Below are positions 39,566-45,995 of a stretch of 64,000 bases of DNA, one piece after another (position 1 is the first letter of the stretch; every line of letters begins with the position of its first letter). The stretch is from an uncultured Candidatus Saccharibacteria bacterium. GTDB lineage: Bacteria > Patescibacteriota > Minisyncoccia > Phycocordibacterales > EsbW-18. The stretch lies in contig CAZFMQ010000001.1 of NCBI GenBank assembly GCA_964520295.1, forward strand, positions 84,604-148,603, given 5' to 3'. The notes beneath the pieces were generated by a model. That model worked only from the letters and a program-made list of their open reading frames with translations, did not search any database and was not told where the DNA came from. Both the position numbers and the translations under genes were made by a program.

Positions 39566-40126
39566 ATGTCATTTCTTTCACTGGTACTTATAGCTGTCGC
39601 GGTTGTCGTTGTGTGGGCAATCTTCACCTATAACCGCTTTATACGTTTGAATGGTAATGCCGATGAGGCGTGGTCGGATATTGATGTGCAACTCAAACGT
39701 CGATACGACCTAATCCCTAATTTGGTAGAAACCGTCAAAGGGTATGCAACACATGAGCGAGAGGCATTTGAACAGGTAACGAAAGCACGCGCCAATGCGA
39801 TGGGTGTATCTGCGCACGCAGGTGTGCAGGAGCACGCACAAGCAGAAAATATGCTTTCGAGCACACTGAAATCACTCTTTGCGATTGCCGAAGCGTATCC
39901 GGACTTGAAGGCAAACCAAAACTTTTTGGAATTACAGCGTGAATTATCCGACACCGAGAACAAAATCCAAGCGTCACGCCGATTTTACAATGCGAGCGTG
40001 CGTGATCTCAACATCGCAGCGGACTCATTTCCGGGCAATGTCATCGCCCGTCTGTTTACGTTCGTAAAGCGAGAGTTTTTTGAAGTGCTTGAAGAGCAGA
40101 AAGAGCCGGTAAAGGTGCAATTTTAG
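39566..40126 (+). CDS. lemA: LemA family protein
   Basis: N-terminal TM helix. LemA signature (YNRFIRLNGNADEAWSDIDVQLKRRYDLIPNLVETVKGYATHE...). Confidence 0.9.
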   Translation: MSFLSLVLIAVAVVVVWAIFTYNRFIRLNGNADEAWSDIDVQLKRRYDLIPNLVETVKGYATHEREAFEQVTKARANAMGVSAHAGVQEHAQAENMLSSTLKSLFAIAEAYPDLKANQNFLELQRELSDTENKIQASRRFYNASVRDLNIAADSFPGNVIARLFTFVKREFFEVLEEQKEPVKVQF

Positions 40127-40130
40127 TTTT

Positions 40131-40307
40131 ATGGTGGGTTTGTACGCACGTCACAACCGTACAGTAAGCTCGGTGTGGTACATCGTTTTTATTTTCGTGT
40201 GTGTCGTTGGTTTTACGACGTGGCGTACATACGAAACCATTCAAGACATTGAGATGAATAATAGTCATATGGTGTCGCATATGCGCGATATTATGGCGAT
40301 AGAATAA
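40131..40307 (+). CDS. Possible small membrane protein (58 aa) between lemA and htpX. Not in the ORF track because it is under 60 aa.
   Basis: ATG 40131 to TAA 40307. Central hydrophobic helix WYIVFIFVCVVGFTTW. Tightly packed between the neighbouring genes. Confidence 0.35.
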   Translation: MVGLYARHNRTVSSVWYIVFIFVCVVGFTTWRTYETIQDIEMNNSHMVSHMRDIMAIE

Positions 40308-40309
40308 GT

Positions 40310-41218
40310 ATGGCGTCACTGTATTCGTATAGAGATAGCAACATCAGCAAGACATGGGCGCTCATGCTCGCGTTTTTCACGGTTGTTATTGGTATCGGGT
40401 GGGTATTTGCACAGATATACGGCTCATCACATATTTTGTATATCGCGGTGGCATTTTCACTCATTATGAACGTTGCGAGCTACTGGTTCTCTGACAAGGT
40501 GGCGCTTGCGGTGTCGGGCGCTCGGCCAGCAACACGCAAAGAATTTTTTGATGTGTATACGGTCACTGAAAATCTTGCCATTACCGCTGGTCTGCCAATG
40601 CCAAAACTCTATGTCATCAATGATCCAGCACCGAATGCATTTGCGACAGGACGCAACCCACGTCATGCAAGTGTCGCAGTTACCACAGGGCTTTTGGAAC
40701 GATTGTCTAGAACAGAGTTGGAGGGTGTGATTGCACACGAATTGGCGCACGTAAAAAATTGGGATATTTTACTTTCGTCAGTTGTTGTCGTACTCGTTGG
40801 TTTCTTGAGTTTGCTGGCGGATTTCTTTTTGCGCTCTATGCACTTTCAAGGAGGTAACAATGATCGTGGTGGCAACGCATTGTTTGCACTAGTGGGTATT
40901 GTGTTGGCAATGTTGACACCGATTGCAGGCACCATTATGCAACTAGCGATTTCTCGCAGACGAGAATCACTTGCAGACGCGTCAGGAGTACTGCTGACAC
41001 GCTATCCCGAAGGGTTGGCATCGGCGCTTGAAAAAATTGGGTCGTATAGTGCGCCGATGCGTCGAGTGCATAGCGCTACTGCGCACTTGTTTCTTTCTGA
41101 TCCGCGCGGGAAAGAGGCACAACAAAAAACAAACAAAGTAAGCTGGGTGGCGCGCCTCTTCATGACGCATCCGCCGATACATGAGCGCATTGCCGCATTG
41201 CGTGACGCAGACAGATAG
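40310..41218 (+). CDS. htpX: Zinc metalloprotease HtpX (M48)
   Basis: HEXXH (GVIAHELAHV), TM helices, and the C-terminal HPP. Confidence 0.92.
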   Translation: MASLYSYRDSNISKTWALMLAFFTVVIGIGWVFAQIYGSSHILYIAVAFSLIMNVASYWFSDKVALAVSGARPATRKEFFDVYTVTENLAITAGLPMPKLYVINDPAPNAFATGRNPRHASVAVTTGLLERLSRTELEGVIAHELAHVKNWDILLSSVVVVLVGFLSLLADFFLRSMHFQGGNNDRGGNALFALVGIVLAMLTPIAGTIMQLAISRRRESLADASGVLLTRYPEGLASALEKIGSYSAPMRRVHSATAHLFLSDPRGKEAQQKTNKVSWVARLFMTHPPIHERIAALRDADR

Positions 41219-42361: not shown

Positions 42362-42649
42362 AGGTGGTGTAGTGTTTCTCCCGCTCTTTCAAATTAAAAA
42401 CCAAAAACTGGCGGGCTACCTCGGGCTGGAACCGTGGTCGGTCAAGCCCGGGTTGGTTATTTTCATTGATTTTATTGTAGCAATTTAAGGTTCTAACAGC
42501 TCACCATTATTTTCAAAAAGTGACAAAAGTGACAGTACTTTGAGTATATTCGTTACAGCCATTTGTCACTTTTCTTCTAGTGACCATGCGACGAAACGCT
42601 AGTTCTGCATAGTCTATGCACCACCAACTGGTCTGTCATCAATAGGTGT

Positions 42650-43938
42650 ATGGAAACAACAGCGCCAGAGAAGTTGAAATACGTTCTGTATGCTCGAAAA
42701 AGTACCGAGAACGACGAACGACAGGCACTCTCGATTGATTCGCAAGTAAAGGAAATGTTACAGATTGCCGAGCGAGAAAGTCTTGAAATAGCGGATATAC
42801 GAAGAGAGGCGCATTCCGCAAAAGATTCAGGACAGCGACCAGTCTTCAAAGAACTTCTTAGCGACATTAGGCAAGAGAAGTTCAACGCGATTCTCACTTG
42901 GGCACCAGATCGTCTTTCGAGAAATGCAGGAGATCTGGGTCGATCGTAGACCTTATGGACGAGAAGAAATTGATATCCATTCGCACTTATGGACAGACCT
43001 TCTCCAACTCCCCGAACGAAAAGTTCCTCCTCATGATTCTCTGTTCTCAAGCGAAACTAGAGAACGATAATCGAGGCATCAATGTAAAACGAGGTCTACG
43101 CGCGCGGTGTGAGCTAGGACTATGGACGACTACGCCGCCAACAGGCTACCTCAAAGAAAAGCGGCTCGACAGGAAGAACGAATGCTATCCAGATCCAGAC
43201 AGAGAAGCCGTGATACGGCAGATATTTGAGAAAGTGGCGTACGAAAAATGGTCAGGACGCAAACTCTATCACTGGCTCACGTTCGAGCTGAACTTTAGAA
43301 CTGCCGCAGGAAAGAAACATTTAAGTCTTGGAAATATCTACCGCATACTTGAGAACACTTTTTACTACGGAGCATTTGAGTATCCGCGAGACAGCGGCAT
43401 CTGGTATCAAGGCAAGCACAAACCGATTATCACTAAGGAACTTTTTGATTTAGTCCAAGAGCAGATAAAGAACTCTCAGCTCGTCCGCAAGGAAAATATC
43501 GAGTTTGCCTTCACGAAGATTATGAAGTGCGGACTATGTGGCTCTGGTGTATCGGCAACCGAAAAGTTTAAGAAGCAGAAGAATGGACCATCGAAACGGC
43601 ATGTCTATTATGGTTGTACCAAAGCGAGAGACAAGAATTGCAAATGCGGGTATATCAACGAAACGGAGCTGATCGAGCAACTGCAAGATCTTACCGATAA
43701 GCTGGACCTCAAGAAAACGCCAATGCAGAACAAAATCAAAATGGAGATCAGGAGATTCAAGAAGTTCCAGGGAATGGTCACCGGAAAGAGCGACAGCATC
43801 GATGTCGATGATGTGGATATTCAGAACTACGCAAGATTTCTACTCAAAGAGGGTGATGATCAGGAGAAACGAGATTTGCTTGGTTGTTTAAAAGGAGAAA
43901 TATTATTAAGTAATAAGCTCATTTCATTAAAGCTTTAA
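42650..43938 (+). pseudogene. Large serine recombinase: resolvase catalytic domain, recombinase domain and zinc ribbon, interrupted by a 1-nt frameshift at about 42940-42950
   Basis: ORF 42650..42949 has catalytic YARKSTE and ends ...LSRNAGDLGRS*. ORF 42898..43938 continues IVDLMDEKK... in another frame with CGLCGS...YYGC...CKCG. The join needs one extra nucleotide in GGTCGATCGTAGAC. Confidence 0.75.
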
Positions 43939-44019
43939 TCGTAAAATTGACCGTAAGTGCCTACAGGTATATACTTTCTTTATAAAGCTATGAATGTGAA
44001 TAGTAAGTCGCAAGACTGA

Positions 44020-44202
44020 ACCAACCCAGGAGCTGCCTGCGATGAGCAGAGACGGAAATCCCAACCGTAAAATAGGGTGGCTGTATTTACAGCTGACAAG
44101 GGTTGTAATAGTGATATTGCAACCAAAGCAAGGTGGTACCACGAGTGATCCTCGTCCTTGCAGAGCCTATTCTTTTAGGTTTTGCAAAGACGGGGATTTT
44201 TC
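44020..44202 (+). promoter_or_regulatory. T-box riboswitch leader (proline specifier CCC) with a terminator, upstream of csaA-like and proS
   Basis: Stem I GA/K-turn motif GCGATGAGCAGAGA (44038-44052). Specifier loop ...GAAATCCCAA (CCC at 44060-62). T-box sequence AAAGCAAGGTGGTACCACGAG (44124-44145). Antiterminator A1 GCAAGG/CCTTGC flanks the bulge TGGTACC and the A2 hairpin ACGAG-TGATC-CTCGT. The terminator CGTCCTTGCA...TGCAAAGACG then TTTTT (44153-44201) shares its 5' strand with the antiterminator. Confidence 0.7.
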
Positions 44203-44226
44203 ATTTTATAATTAACCTACAACATC

Positions 44227-44559
44227 ATGATTACATATGACGATTTTACAAAAGTAGACATTCGCGTCGGGAAAATCACAAAGGTCGAAGATTTTCCCGA
44301 AGCTCGGAAGCCAGCATATAAAATCTGGATTGATTTTGGAGTAGAAATTGGTACTAAAGTTTCTTCTGCCCAAATCACAAAGCATTATTCAAAAGATAAC
44401 CTTATCGGCAAGCAAGTAATTGGTGTTGTGAATTTCCCACCAAAACAAATTGGTCCGTTTAAATCAGAAGTACTGACTCTTGGATTAACAGATGAAAATG
44501 GCGATGTTGTCATTGTTGCACCAACTAAAGAAGTTCCATTAGGCGGAAAACTATTTTAA
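44227..44559 (+). CDS. csaA: tRNA-binding protein (CsaA/Trbp111-like OB-fold, EMAP/MetRS C-terminal-domain type)
   Basis: DFTKVDIRVGKITKVEDFPEARKPAYKIWIDFG...IGKQVIGVVNFPPKQIGPFKSEVLTLG is the canonical Trbp111 domain. Confidence 0.88.
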   Translation: MITYDDFTKVDIRVGKITKVEDFPEARKPAYKIWIDFGVEIGTKVSSAQITKHYSKDNLIGKQVIGVVNFPPKQIGPFKSEVLTLGLTDENGDVVIVAPTKEVPLGGKLF

Positions 44560-44564
44560 CTATT

Positions 44565-45995
44565 ATGAAGTTTACTAAAAGAGACTTGCCAAAAAAATCA
44601 GAAAACCTTTCTGATTGGTATAACAAAGTAATTTTGATGGCTGAGCTTGCTGACTATGGCCCAGCAAAGGGAACGATGATTTACCGTCCCTATGGTTATG
44701 CTATCTGGGAGCTTATACAAAAAGAAATGGATAGTTTGATAAAGGAGCGCGGAGTTGAGAATGGATATTTCCCTCTTTTTATCCCTGAATCTTTGCTCAA
44801 AAAGGAAGAAAGTCATATTGAAGGATTTTCTCCAGAGCTAGCAGTTGTAACAATTGGCGGAGGTGAACAATTGACAGAAAAGTTGGTAGTAAGACCAACC
44901 AGCGAAACAATAATGTATGACGCTTATTCACGCTGGATCCACTCTTGGCGTGATTTACCGTTGATGATTAATCAGTGGAATAATGTCGTTCGATGGGAGA
45001 AAAGAACTTATATGTTTTTGCGCACAACAGAATTCTTATGGCAAGAAGGACATACTGCTCATGCGACACATGATGAAGCATGGGAGATGGTTTTATGGGC
45101 GATGAAAATGTACCAGAAAGTTTATCGTGAACTTTTTGCAATGCCTGGATATGTGGGAAGAAAATCTGAGTCAGAAAAATTTGCAGGCGCTGACAAGACT
45201 TTGACCTTTGAATCACTTATGCCTGAGGGAAAAGCTTTACAAAGCTGTACTTCGCACGATTTAGGTCAAAACTTTTCAAAGACATTCGATATTTCCTTCC
45301 TTAATTCAGAAGGAAAATCAGAGAATGTATGGCAGACGAGTTGGGGTCTATCTACACGCTCAATTGGTGGCCTTATTATGATGCATGGCGATGATGCGGG
45401 ATTGGTCTTGCCGCCTCGTCTAGCTCCAATTCAAGTTGTAGTTTTGCCAGTAAAAGGCGATGAAGAAATCATGGTGATATGTAAAGATATACAAGAGAAA
45501 TTAAAGGCCAAAAGTATTCGGGTAAAAATTGATGACTCAGATAATGAGACAATTGGATTCCGTATTAATAAGTGGGAATTAAAAGGTGTTCCTCTAAGGA
45601 TTGAAGTTGGCATAAAGGAAGTTGAGCAAGGCAAAATCACGGCTGTTCGCAGAGATAATGGAGAAAAGTTTAGCTTCTCAAATAATGAGTTGATCGAAAA
45701 GACTAGCGAACTCTTGCACACGATTCAGAGCGAGTTATATCAAAGAGCAGAAAAGTTTCTGCAGGAAAATACTCGGAACGTAAAAACGTACGAGGAGTTT
45801 AAAGAAACTTTGTCTGAAAAGCGAGGATTTATTTCTGCATTCTGGTGTGAGAATGAGGAATGTGAAAAAAATATAAAAGAAGAAACAAAAGCAACTACTC
45901 GGTGCCAACCAATTGATTCAGAAGAATTGGACGGAAAATGTGTCTATTGTAATAGGCCTGCAAAATACAGCTGGCTCTTTGGCCAGGCTTATTAG
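44565..45995 (+). CDS. proS: Prolyl-tRNA synthetase, archaeal/eukaryotic type (no INS editing domain, C-terminal Zn-binding domain ending in Tyr)
   Basis: Class II motifs, anticodon-binding domain, and a C-terminal CxxC...CxxC...Y (CENEECEKN...CVYCNRPAKYSWLFGQAY). Length 476 aa. AT-rich codon usage. Confidence 0.9.
   Translation: MKFTKRDLPKKSENLSDWYNKVILMAELADYGPAKGTMIYRPYGYAIWELIQKEMDSLIKERGVENGYFPLFIPESLLKKEESHIEGFSPELAVVTIGGGEQLTEKLVVRPTSETIMYDAYSRWIHSWRDLPLMINQWNNVVRWEKRTYMFLRTTEFLWQEGHTAHATHDEAWEMVLWAMKMYQKVYRELFAMPGYVGRKSESEKFAGADKTLTFESLMPEGKALQSCTSHDLGQNFSKTFDISFLNSEGKSENVWQTSWGLSTRSIGGLIMMHGDDAGLVLPPRLAPIQVVVLPVKGDEEIMVICKDIQEKLKAKSIRVKIDDSDNETIGFRINKWELKGVPLRIEVGIKEVEQGKITAVRRDNGEKFSFSNNELIEKTSELLHTIQSELYQRAEKFLQENTRNVKTYEEFKETLSEKRGFISAFWCENEECEKNIKEETKATTRCQPIDSEELDGKCVYCNRPAKYSWLFGQAY

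What the first reader, a model, noticed from the sequence alone, without database searches (positions are those of the whole stretch)
42920..42960. Large serine recombinase disrupted by a single-nucleotide frameshift
The catalytic resolvase domain (42650-42949, Ser in YARKSTE) and the recombinase plus zinc-ribbon domains (42898-43938) are in different frames. Restoring ...GDLGR-IVDLMDE... requires one extra nucleotide within GGTCGATCGTAGAC. Either the integrase is a pseudogene, in which case the islet is fixed, or this is a sequencing or assembly indel. An inverted repeat CAAAAGTGACAAAAGTGACAG / TTGTCACTTTTC at 42521-42585, just upstream, could be a remnant att or binding site.
Basis: seen in the sequence. 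Interest (0 to 1): 0.5.

Follow-up and report, generated by a model that had tools for sequence, protein, structure and literature searches.

The report
Freshly frameshifted serine integrase remnant
A mobile-element integrase gene in an uncultured (CPR/Patescibacteria-type) bacterium has lost one base and is split in two; the break is real, recent and an ordinary case of gene decay, although the conserved DNA just upstream of it is unexplained.

Summary
ORF 42650-42949 carries the first 82 of 145 positions of the resolvase catalytic domain. ORF 42898-43938 carries the rest plus the recombinase and zinc-ribbon domains, one frame away. One added base gives a 429-aa large serine recombinase (LSR).

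All 120 best homologues read DLGS[LV]VDL, so the lost base is the third base of the Gly97 codon (CTGGG^TCG, 42939/42940; GGGG to GGG, or GGTT to GGT).

The same frameshifted sequence occurs, 100% identical, in assemblies of two other sequencing runs, so an assembly error is unlikely. dN/dS against intact relatives is about 0.03 on both sides of the break, and the 333 downstream codons have no other lesion. There is no slippery heptamer, no stimulatory fold, and no shift in any homologue. I read this as a recent genuine pseudogene.

The islet is about 1.53 kb (42410 to about 43940). The same unit occurs with an intact gene elsewhere. Larger relatives carry methyltransferase, terminase genes and defence cargo.

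The module and boxes also occur in many loci without any recombinase, sometimes in arrays. That is unexplained.

The parts
42410..42528 (+). Conserved ~120-bp 'end module' that forms the left edge of the islet. It contains the near-invariant core GAACCGTGGTCGGTCAAGC (42429-42447) inside a ~48-bp imperfect dyad.
   Evidence: nhmmer profile hit, E 7e-18, the only copy in the 64-kb window. Homology to L078, L003 and L075 starts exactly at 42410/42411 with unrelated DNA to the left. The Logan contigs break here: L006 starts at 42411 and L009 ends at 42426. The exact 19-mer occurs in 97 metagenome stretches.
42516..42573 (.). Four-box motif. Box1 GTGACA is at 42520-42525 and box2 GTGACA at 42529-42534 (tandem AAAAGTGACA). 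Box3 GTTACA is at 42552-42557 and box4 TGTCAC at 42564-42569 (a palindrome).
   Evidence: Perfect 12-nt inverted repeat. The same arrangement is conserved in L078. Tandem boxes occur in 51 distinct sequence contexts, 35 of them with an inverted box downstream, with or without a recombinase. Three matches to the 12-mer with up to one mismatch occur in the window, against 0.68 expected by chance.
42586..42643 (+). Conserved upstream (promoter/operator) region of the recombinase gene: ATGCGACG (42586-42593), palindrome TCTGCATAGTCTATGCA (42604-42620) and TCTGTCATCAAT (42632-42643).
   Evidence: Aligned and conserved in L001, L003, L078 and L084 upstream of intact genes. The function is inferred.
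42650..42949 (+). 5' fragment of the recombinase gene. It has the catalytic Ser18 in YARKSTE and the DRLSR motif, and it terminates at TAG 42947-42949 after two out-of-frame codons.
   Evidence: Pfam Resolvase positions 2-82 of 145, E 1.1e-14. tblastn of the repaired protein gives residues 1-97 = 42650-42940.
42937..42940 (+). Frameshift site GGGT. One base is missing from the third position of the Gly97 codon or the adjacent base (ancestral CTG GGG TCG or CTG GGT TCG).
   Evidence: The closest homologue, L001, has CTC GGG TCG. All 18 distinct homologous DNAs are in frame.
42940..43938 (+). 3' part of the recombinase gene in the -1 frame: the rest of the catalytic domain (E-helix), the recombinase domain and the zinc ribbon. 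It has 333 codons without a further stop.
   Evidence: Pfam Recombinase and Zn_ribbon_recom. Match to SPbeta SprA over residues 14-397. dN/dS about 0.03.
43947..44162 (+). Host DNA that sets the right limit of the islet: promoter-like TTGACC-17-TATACT (43947-43975) and a T-box leader (43981-44162) for the tRNA_bind/ProRS operon.
   Evidence: 10 of 12 promoter match. (T-box, E 1.1e-13, 66 bits, below Rfam's gathering score of 93). Homology with L078 ends near the stop codon.

Best explanation
This is a genuine, evolutionarily recent one-base deletion in a large serine recombinase (integrase) gene, either G from a GGGG run or T from GGTT, at 42939/42940.

The deletion cuts the catalytic domain between the DRLSR motif and the E-helix. 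Normal translation therefore gives a 99-aa stub. At best an internally initiated C-terminal protein without the nucleophile is also made. Neither product can catalyse strand exchange.

The gene is the only surviving gene of a ~1.53-kb islet (42410 to about 43940) inserted between a small membrane-protein gene and the promoter and T-box of the tRNA_bind/ProRS operon. It belongs to a very large family of Patescibacteria (CPR) integrases. The fuller elements of that family carry a ParB-methyltransferase, small and large terminase genes and variable defence cargo.

With its only recombinase inactivated, the islet cannot move by itself. This immobility is inferred.

Shown: the lesion, its exact place, its presence in independent assemblies, past purifying selection, and the family context. 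Inferred: loss of function and immobility.
For: - Lesion. The domain is split across two frames and repaired by one base. The exact position comes from 120 homologous proteins and 18 homologous DNAs, all in frame.
- Reality of the lesion. The same sequence is 100% identical in Logan contigs from SRR9016293 (L006, covering 42411-45463) and SRR31189353 (L007, from 42931), each assembled per run.
- Recency. Nucleotide identity to the closest intact gene is 82% against about 93-94% at protein level. dN/dS is 0.03-0.04 both upstream and downstream of the break, with synonymous sites saturated and no further stop in 333 codons.
- No programmed-shift signals. There is no X_XXY_YYZ heptamer in GAT CTG GGT CGA TCG TAG. 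The downstream fold has z = -0.97.
- Family decay. Other copies beside the same module are visibly decayed. In L144/L147, residues 45-326 are replaced by about 1 kb of other DNA. L142 keeps only residues 6-58, and L091 only residues 249-427.
- LSR identity. SPbeta SprA E 1.4e-17, PHROG 95 'integrase' E 4e-65.
- Element context. Methyltransferase, TerS, TerL and recombinase with type I R-M cargo. The same minimal unit with an intact gene occurs in the L078-L083 loci.
- Copy number. There is only one recombinase copy in the window.
Against: - I could not inspect reads. If the window was itself assembled from SRR9016293, L006 is not independent at the read level, and only L007 is. In L007 the site lies 7-10 nt from the contig end.
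- A gene that is otherwise pristine is also what a base-calling error next to a homopolymer would look like.
- No intact allele of this exact gene (more than 94% identical) is in the database for comparison.
- Low-level spontaneous -1 slippage at G_GGU would yield exactly the conserved DLGS sequence, so residual activity cannot be excluded.
- The minimal unit with an intact gene persists under purifying selection in other genomes. The gene may therefore have a host-level role that I did not identify.
Confidence: 0.75

Rival explanations
1. Sequencing or assembly artefact. The real genome has GGGG (or GGTT) and an intact 429-aa integrase.
For: The lesion is a single-base indel in or beside a short homopolymer, in a gene with no other defect and strong past purifying selection. 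The source and technology of the window are unknown.
Against: The identical CTGGGTCGATCG occurs in two other per-run assemblies from different run series, and those contigs are 100% identical to the window over 3053 and 2804 nt. A three-base G run is short for a systematic homopolymer error. Gene callers on those contigs also produced the 99-aa and 327-aa pair.
Confidence: 0.1
2. Programmed -1 ribosomal frameshift (or transcriptional slippage) that makes full-length integrase at a regulated low level.
For: The shift is in the -1 direction. Slippage of tRNA-Gly from GGU back to GGG would restore exactly the conserved ...DLGSIVDL... sequence. The next 0-frame codon is CGA, and a stop follows two codons later. 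Programmed -1 shifts are known in transposase genes such as IS1 and IS3 (my own knowledge).
Against: There is no canonical slippery heptamer and no A/T run. There is no stable downstream structure (z = -0.97). None of the 120 homologous proteins or 18 homologous DNAs has the shift. A conserved regulatory device would be shared by relatives.
Confidence: 0.03
3. The split is tolerated because the C-terminal product has a function. The product would be 327 aa from ATG 42955, with the E-helix, recombinase domain and zinc ribbon but no nucleophile. It would act as a DNA-binding protein, for example a repressor or a blocker of the conserved upstream sites or of related elements.
For: The downstream ORF is intact, starts with a possible ATG, and retains all the DNA-binding domains. 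Conserved candidate binding sites lie directly upstream.
Against: There is no evidence of selection on the truncated form, because only one such allele is known. No obvious ribosome-binding site precedes ATG 42955. Decay of other copies follows different patterns, as expected for neutral loss.
Confidence: 0.05

Closest known systems
Large serine recombinases (phage and mobile-element integrases such as SPbeta SprA/YokA, TP901-1 Int, Listeria A118 Int, phiC31 Int)
   Same: The repaired protein has the same three-domain order: N-terminal resolvase catalytic domain with a Ser nucleophile, then a recombinase domain, then a zinc ribbon. It aligns to SprA over residues 14-397 (E 1.4e-17) and to the TP901-1 catalytic domain. 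It matches PHROG 95 'integrase'. In relatives the gene sits at the edge of an element next to packaging genes.
   Different: Identity to any integrase in the phage collection is below 30%. The protein belongs to a separate, very large clade of mostly Patescibacteria-labelled proteins whose members are 79-94% identical to it. No att sites have been defined for this clade. In this window the gene is interrupted.
Cryptic or decaying prophage and island remnants with inactivated integrase genes
   Same: It is a lone integrase gene with a single inactivating lesion. The rest of the element is missing. Other copies of the family show larger deletions or replacements.
   Different: The same minimal unit (module, boxes, promoter, integrase) is kept with an intact, selected gene in other genomes. 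The 'remnant' form is therefore not simply rubble.
Packaging-gene islands and phage satellites (PICI-like elements) that carry defence cargo
   Same: The common context of the family is ParB-like methyltransferase, small terminase-like HTH protein, large terminase and integrase, followed by variable type I R-M or other defence genes and no capsid genes in the stretches seen. Islands with type I R-M systems are reported in Patescibacteria (PMC12455944).
   Different: None of these genes is present in the window. Satellite behaviour (helper phage, packaging) is untested.
Integron cassette arrays and SCC-type composite islands (comparison for the upstream module only)
   Same: The ~120-bp module occurs in same-orientation arrays 0.45-3.7 kb apart. 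Small accessory genes (NUDIX, HIT, GrpB, nucleotidase) end at each copy. The same module is joined to at least five unrelated left flanks at one nucleotide.
   Different: There is no tyrosine integrase and no R''/R' attC consensus. There is no consistent single-strand fold (median z = -0.6). Most module loci show no recombinase at all in the DNA fetched.

Membership tests
Large serine recombinase (LSR) | N-terminal resolvase-type catalytic domain with a serine nucleophile and conserved Arg residues | tested here: met
   PF00239 positions 2-140 of 145, E 5.7e-21, on the repaired protein. Ser18 lies in YARKSTE and the DRLSR motif is read directly from the sequence.
Large serine recombinase (LSR) | Recombinase domain (PF07508) followed by a zinc ribbon domain (PF13408) | tested here: met
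   E 2.5e-14 and 5.4e-8. The Cys residues in KCGLCG...YYGCTKARDKNCKCG are read.
Large serine recombinase (LSR) | Sequence relationship to experimentally characterised LSRs | tested here: met
   SPbeta SprA (9dxh) E 1.4e-17 over residues 14-397. TP901-1 integrase catalytic domain E 3.9e-10.
Large serine recombinase (LSR) | One uninterrupted reading frame that encodes all domains | tested here: not met
   The frame changes at 42939/42940 and there is a stop at 42947. Every homologue examined is uninterrupted.
Large serine recombinase (LSR) | Cognate 40-50-bp att sites with imperfect dyad symmetry around a central dinucleotide, and integration or excision activity | tested here: inconclusive
   A ~48-bp imperfect dyad around GAACCG-TGG-TCGGTC lies in the module, and a palindrome TGCATAGTCTATGCA lies upstream of the gene. 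Neither is shown to be a crossover site. No conserved sequence follows the stop codon in relatives. No empty site was found.
Programmed -1 ribosomal frameshift | Slippery heptamer X_XXY_YYZ at the shift site | tested here: not met
   The 0-frame sequence is GAT CTG GGT CGA TCG TAG. No heptamer of that form is present.
Programmed -1 ribosomal frameshift | Stimulatory downstream structure | tested here: not met
   Region 42944-43030 folds at -15.1 kcal/mol, z = -0.97 against shuffles.
Programmed -1 ribosomal frameshift | Conservation of the shift among homologues | tested here: not met
   The shift is found in 0 of 120 homologous proteins and 0 of 18 distinct homologous DNAs.
Integron (for the upstream module and its arrays) | IntI tyrosine recombinase next to attI and the array | tested here: not met
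   The only recombinase linked to the module is a serine recombinase. Large ORFs near the arrays look like housekeeping genes, judged by my own reading of their translations.
Integron (for the upstream module and its arrays) | attC sites with R''/R' consensus that fold as single strands | tested here: not met
   There is no GTTRRRY at the boundary. The median fold z-score of 98 copies is -0.6, and RNAalifold gives no consensus structure.
Integron (for the upstream module and its arrays) | Same-orientation arrays of sites, each following one or a few small genes | tested here: met
   Fifteen loci have 2-3 copies in the same orientation, with ORFs ending at the module. The cassette-like genes are NUDIX, HIT, GrpB and NT5C.
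Methyltransferase-terminase-integrase island (family context) | ParB/N6_N4 methyltransferase, TerS-like and TerL-like genes upstream of the integrase | tested here: not met
   These genes are present in L068 and L182-L189. In the window only 240 nt of non-coding DNA separates the islet's left edge from the integrase start.

The most novel reading that the evidence does not exclude
The conserved module and four-box DNA directly upstream of this integrase may be more than a leftover. It could be the landing or recombination site of an undescribed system in CPR bacteria that uses a serine recombinase to capture genes or islands.

The window (and L078) would then be the 'empty platform': recombinase, divergent control region and site. 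The same-orientation arrays of module-flanked NUDIX, HIT and GrpB genes elsewhere would be captured cassettes that often lack their recombinase.

My evidence neither shows this nor excludes it.
Probability: 0.1. Interest if true: 0.75.

Novelty: new member of a known kind. Interest (0 to 1): 0.27.

Why it matters
The finding itself matters little. It is a clean, datable example of the first step of integrase decay in a reduced CPR genome, and it tells an annotator to call 42650-43938 one pseudogene rather than two genes.

The surroundings are more useful.
- The gene belongs to a very large and unusually conserved integrase family. This family appears to be the integrase of methyltransferase-terminase islands that carry defence systems in Patescibacteria. 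No member has been characterised, and no att site is known.
- The ~120-bp module and the GTGACA boxes are a widespread, unannotated DNA element with signs of junction formation. If the element is the recombination site of this family, it would give a handle on how these small genomes exchange accessory genes. It might also provide new integrase and att pairs as tools.

Tried and rejected
- **Empty site.** I searched one genome per species with the flanking ProRS and then ran tblastn with all neighbouring proteins. The closest relatives (64-83% ProRS identity) do not keep the gene order, so no empty site was found. An all-against-all search for insert/empty pairs among 100 module loci also found none.
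- **Known RNA.** Rfam found nothing for the module in the window or in six other loci. RNAalifold gave no consensus structure on either strand. Per-copy folds are not more stable than shuffles. I therefore dropped the ncRNA and attC-like hairpin readings. The window's own copy does fold well (-24.9 kcal/mol, z = -2.7), and an earlier fold of 42400-42540 gave z = -0.81.
- **tRNA-fragment target.** ARAGORN finds no tRNA near the islet, and the module does not resemble a tRNA 3' end.
- **att half-site after the stop codon.** The TTGACCG at 43947 matched part of the module core in reverse. It is the -35 of the host T-box promoter and is absent after the stop codon in seven other loci.
- **Module as a recombinase-specific site.** I rejected this as stated. 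Only about 10 of 80 module loci have a recombinase-like hit in the DNA fetched. The abundant 427-aa clade lacks the module, the boxes and the upstream palindrome.
- **Phage and plasmid databases.** There is no DNA match to 42410-42650.
- **Literature.** I found no paper on serine recombinases or integron-like arrays in Patescibacteria.
- **Composition.** There is no GC anomaly for the islet.

Full report
**1. The observation**

The + strand between 42650 and 43938 holds two overlapping ORFs in different frames. ORF 42650-42949 (99 aa) matches only the first 82 of 145 positions of the Pfam resolvase catalytic domain. ORF 42898-43938 (346 aa) matches the recombinase domain and the recombinase zinc ribbon. 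The downstream frame is -1 relative to the upstream one.

Adding one base anywhere between about 42930 and 42948 produces a single 429-aa ORF. In that ORF the catalytic domain is complete (positions 2-140 of 145, E 5.7e-21) and is followed by the other two domains.

**2. Where exactly the base is missing**

A search of the repaired protein against the large protein collection hit the 8000-candidate ceiling. The 120 best hits are 420-468 aa long (most 427-442), 78-94% identical, and where a source names the organism it is mostly Patescibacteria/CPR.

Every one of the 120 reads DRLSRNAGDLGS[LV]VDLMD. In 18 distinct homologous DNAs the region is in frame, with Gly (GGA/GGT/GGC/GGG) followed by Ser, Thr or Ala. 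The closest relative, L001, has CTC GGG TCG GTC.

The window has CTG GGT CGA TCG TAG. The lost base is therefore the third base of the Gly97 codon or the adjacent T (GGGG to GGG, or GGTT to GGT), between 42939 and 42940.

**3. Error or mutation?**

I could not see reads, but the exact-protein look-up gives a partial substitute.

- The 99-aa stub and the 327-aa downstream gene call are on a contig assembled from run SRR9016293 (L006).
- The neighbouring tRNA_bind protein led to two more contigs, from SRR31189353 (L007) and SRR9016294 (L008).
- L006, L007 and L008 are 100% identical to the window over 3053, 2804 and 1399 nt. L006 and L007 both contain CTGGGTCGATCG.

At least two run series, each assembled separately, therefore carry the shifted sequence. 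If the window came from SRR9016293, only L007 is independent at the read level, and the site there is close to the contig end. I leave about 10% for an artefact.

**4. Age of the lesion**

Against intact relatives (L001, L078, L003, L084) the nucleotide identity is 76-82%, while the protein identity is 86-93%. Nei-Gojobori dN/dS is 0.03-0.04 both for the 96 codons before the break and for the 332 after it. Synonymous sites are saturated. The 333 codons downstream contain no other stop or shift.

The gene was under strong purifying selection for essentially all of its history. The break is young relative to any divergence I can measure.

**5. Programmed frameshift?**

The direction (-1) and the product of a tRNA-Gly slip (DLGS) would fit. 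But there is no X_XXY_YYZ heptamer and no A/T run. There is no stable structure downstream (z = -0.97). No homologue shares the shift. I give this 3%.

**6. What the gene is**

The repaired protein aligns with the SPbeta integrase SprA/YokA over residues 14-397 (E 1.4e-17) and with the TP901-1 integrase catalytic domain. It matches PHROG 95 'integrase' at E 4e-65. It is less than 30% identical to any integrase in the phage collection.

It meets the domain definition of a large serine recombinase. It fails only the requirement of an uninterrupted frame.

The break lies between the DRLSR motif and the E-helix, inside the catalytic domain. The two fragments are therefore not separate functional domains. 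This last point is an inference from established knowledge of serine recombinase structure.

**7. What element it belongs to**

For the abundant 427-aa clade (P0077, P0115) and for an IMG/VR contig (L068), the conserved neighbourhood is:

- a 132-aa ORF;
- a ParB-like N6/N4 methyltransferase;
- a small-terminase-like HTH protein;
- a large terminase (PHROG 38, E 8e-75 in L068);
- the integrase;
- then, on the other strand, variable cargo such as type I restriction-modification genes.

Islands with type I R-M systems have been noted in Patescibacteria (PMC12455944).

The closest relatives of the window's gene sit in reduced versions of this layout:

- L084 has the methyltransferase, a small ORF in the TerS position, a reverse transcriptase with an Avd-like gene, and the integrase.
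- L003 has the methyltransferase, a small ORF in the same position, and the integrase.
- L001 keeps only the TerS-like gene.
- The L078-L083 loci and the window have the integrase alone.

The window and L078 are collinear at 81% identity from 42411 to about 43902, with unrelated flanks. On the right, the host promoter (43947-43975) and the T-box leader (43981-44162) limit the islet to at most 8 nt beyond the stop codon. The islet is thus about 1.53 kb. There is no second recombinase in the window.

Other copies of the family beside the same upstream module are more heavily decayed. In L144/L147, residues 45-326 are replaced by about 1 kb of other DNA. L142 and L091 keep only fragments. A frameshift in the window's copy fits this pattern.

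**8. The inverted repeat and the DNA upstream**

There are two tandem AAAAGTGACA boxes, a ~14-nt spacer, and then a GTTACA-N6-TGTCAC palindrome. Tandem boxes occur in 51 distinct sequence contexts, and 35 of them have an inverted box downstream. Most of these have no recombinase nearby.

To the left of the boxes lies a ~120-bp module (42410-42528) with a near-invariant 19-mer. That 19-mer occurs in 97 metagenome stretches. A profile of the module finds one copy in the window. In 15 other loci it finds arrays of 2-3 same-orientation copies, 0.45-3.7 kb apart.

With the module written on the + strand, the ORFs to its right are on the - strand and end at the module. They encode NUDIX, HIT, GrpB, nucleotidase and kinase-like proteins and small unknown proteins. 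From my reading of the translations, the surrounding genes look like housekeeping genes.

Nearly identical modules (92-100%) are joined to at least five unrelated left flanks at the same nucleotide, often just after a terminator-like hairpin. Assemblies break at the module edge.

Wherever a family recombinase or a fragment of one is present, it lies to the right of the module on the same strand. In two loci (L114, L143) a distant recombinase-like hit, 30-35% identical, lies to the left on the same strand.

Within the module, the bases before a CTCGAGC-like motif covary as a direct repeat with a second copy 74 nt away. They covary as a complement with a segment between the two copies.

The module does not fold consistently as a single strand and matches no Rfam family. 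I read it as a double-stranded protein-binding region with a ~48-bp imperfect dyad and several half-site-like repeats. This is the kind of DNA a site-specific recombinase or a packaging or regulatory protein would recognise. I cannot say which.

The common 427-aa clade has neither the module nor the boxes. The link to the recombinase is therefore real but not obligatory.

**9. Verdict**

The finding is confirmed and its main interpretation is supported. This is a large serine recombinase gene inactivated by loss of one base, most likely a genuine and recent mutation (0.75), in a minimal remnant of a CPR integrative island.

This is an ordinary event and scores low. The unexplained module and box element next to it is the part that deserves follow-up. 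Its most novel reading, a gene-capture site based on a serine recombinase, has perhaps a 10% chance.

Noticed in passing
window 42410-42528; loci L085-L181: A ~120-bp conserved DNA module (core GAACCGTGGTCGGTCAAGC) is widespread in CPR-type metagenome contigs. It often forms same-orientation arrays with one or a few small accessory genes (NUDIX, HIT, GrpB, NT5C) ending at each copy. It is joined to unrelated left flanks at one fixed nucleotide. It has no Rfam match and no consistent single-strand fold.
   Followed up: partly
window 42516-42573; 51 distinct sequence contexts: A four-box motif (AAAAGTGACA twice, about 14 nt, then AAAGTTACA-N6-7-TGTMACTTT) recurs next to the module with or without a recombinase. 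It looks like an operator or a multi-site protein-binding region. The binding protein is unknown.
   Followed up: partly
window 43981-44162: A T-box leader (E 1.1e-13, but below Rfam's gathering score) lies upstream of a tRNA_bind gene (44227-44559) and ProRS (44565-45995). Stem I is drastically shortened: 4 nt where the model has 53. The apparent specifier after GAA is CCA (Pro), which matches the synthetase. A good promoter-like site, TTGACC-17-TATACT, lies at 43947-43975.
   Followed up: partly
L182-L189, L068: The abundant 427-aa clade of this integrase family has a fixed neighbourhood: ParB-like methyltransferase, small terminase-like HTH protein, large terminase and integrase, followed by variable type I R-M or other defence genes and no capsid genes in the stretches seen. 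This suggests a satellite-like or packaging-competent defence island common in Patescibacteria.
   Followed up: partly
L144 2287-3622 and L147 7227-8553: Another copy of the integrase next to the module and boxes is broken differently. Residues 1-44 and about 327-384 remain, and about 1 kb of unrelated DNA containing a NUDIX-like ORF replaces the middle.
   Followed up: partly
L084 6371-7773: An Avd-like gene and a reverse transcriptase, which together look like a diversity-generating retroelement, lie immediately upstream of an 88%-identical integrase.
   Followed up: no
L001 1817-2124: In the closest relative, about 316 nt holding a small (~100-aa) ORF lie between the conserved promoter region and the integrase start. 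The ORF's stop overlaps the start (ATGA). This stretch is absent from the window.
   Followed up: no
window 42604-42620: The palindrome TGCATAGTCTATGCA lies about 30 nt upstream of the integrase start. It is conserved in L001, L003, L067, L078, L084 and L127 but absent from the 427-aa clade. It may be an autoregulatory operator.
   Followed up: partly
L078 14856-16697 versus window 39566-41218: The genome that carries the intact minimal unit also has LemA and HtpX-type (Peptidase_M48) genes, 65-69% identical at the DNA level to those left of the window's islet. There they lie 5-7 kb to the right and are inverted. The two hosts are related, but the integrase unit (81% identical) is better conserved than these housekeeping genes.
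   Followed up: no
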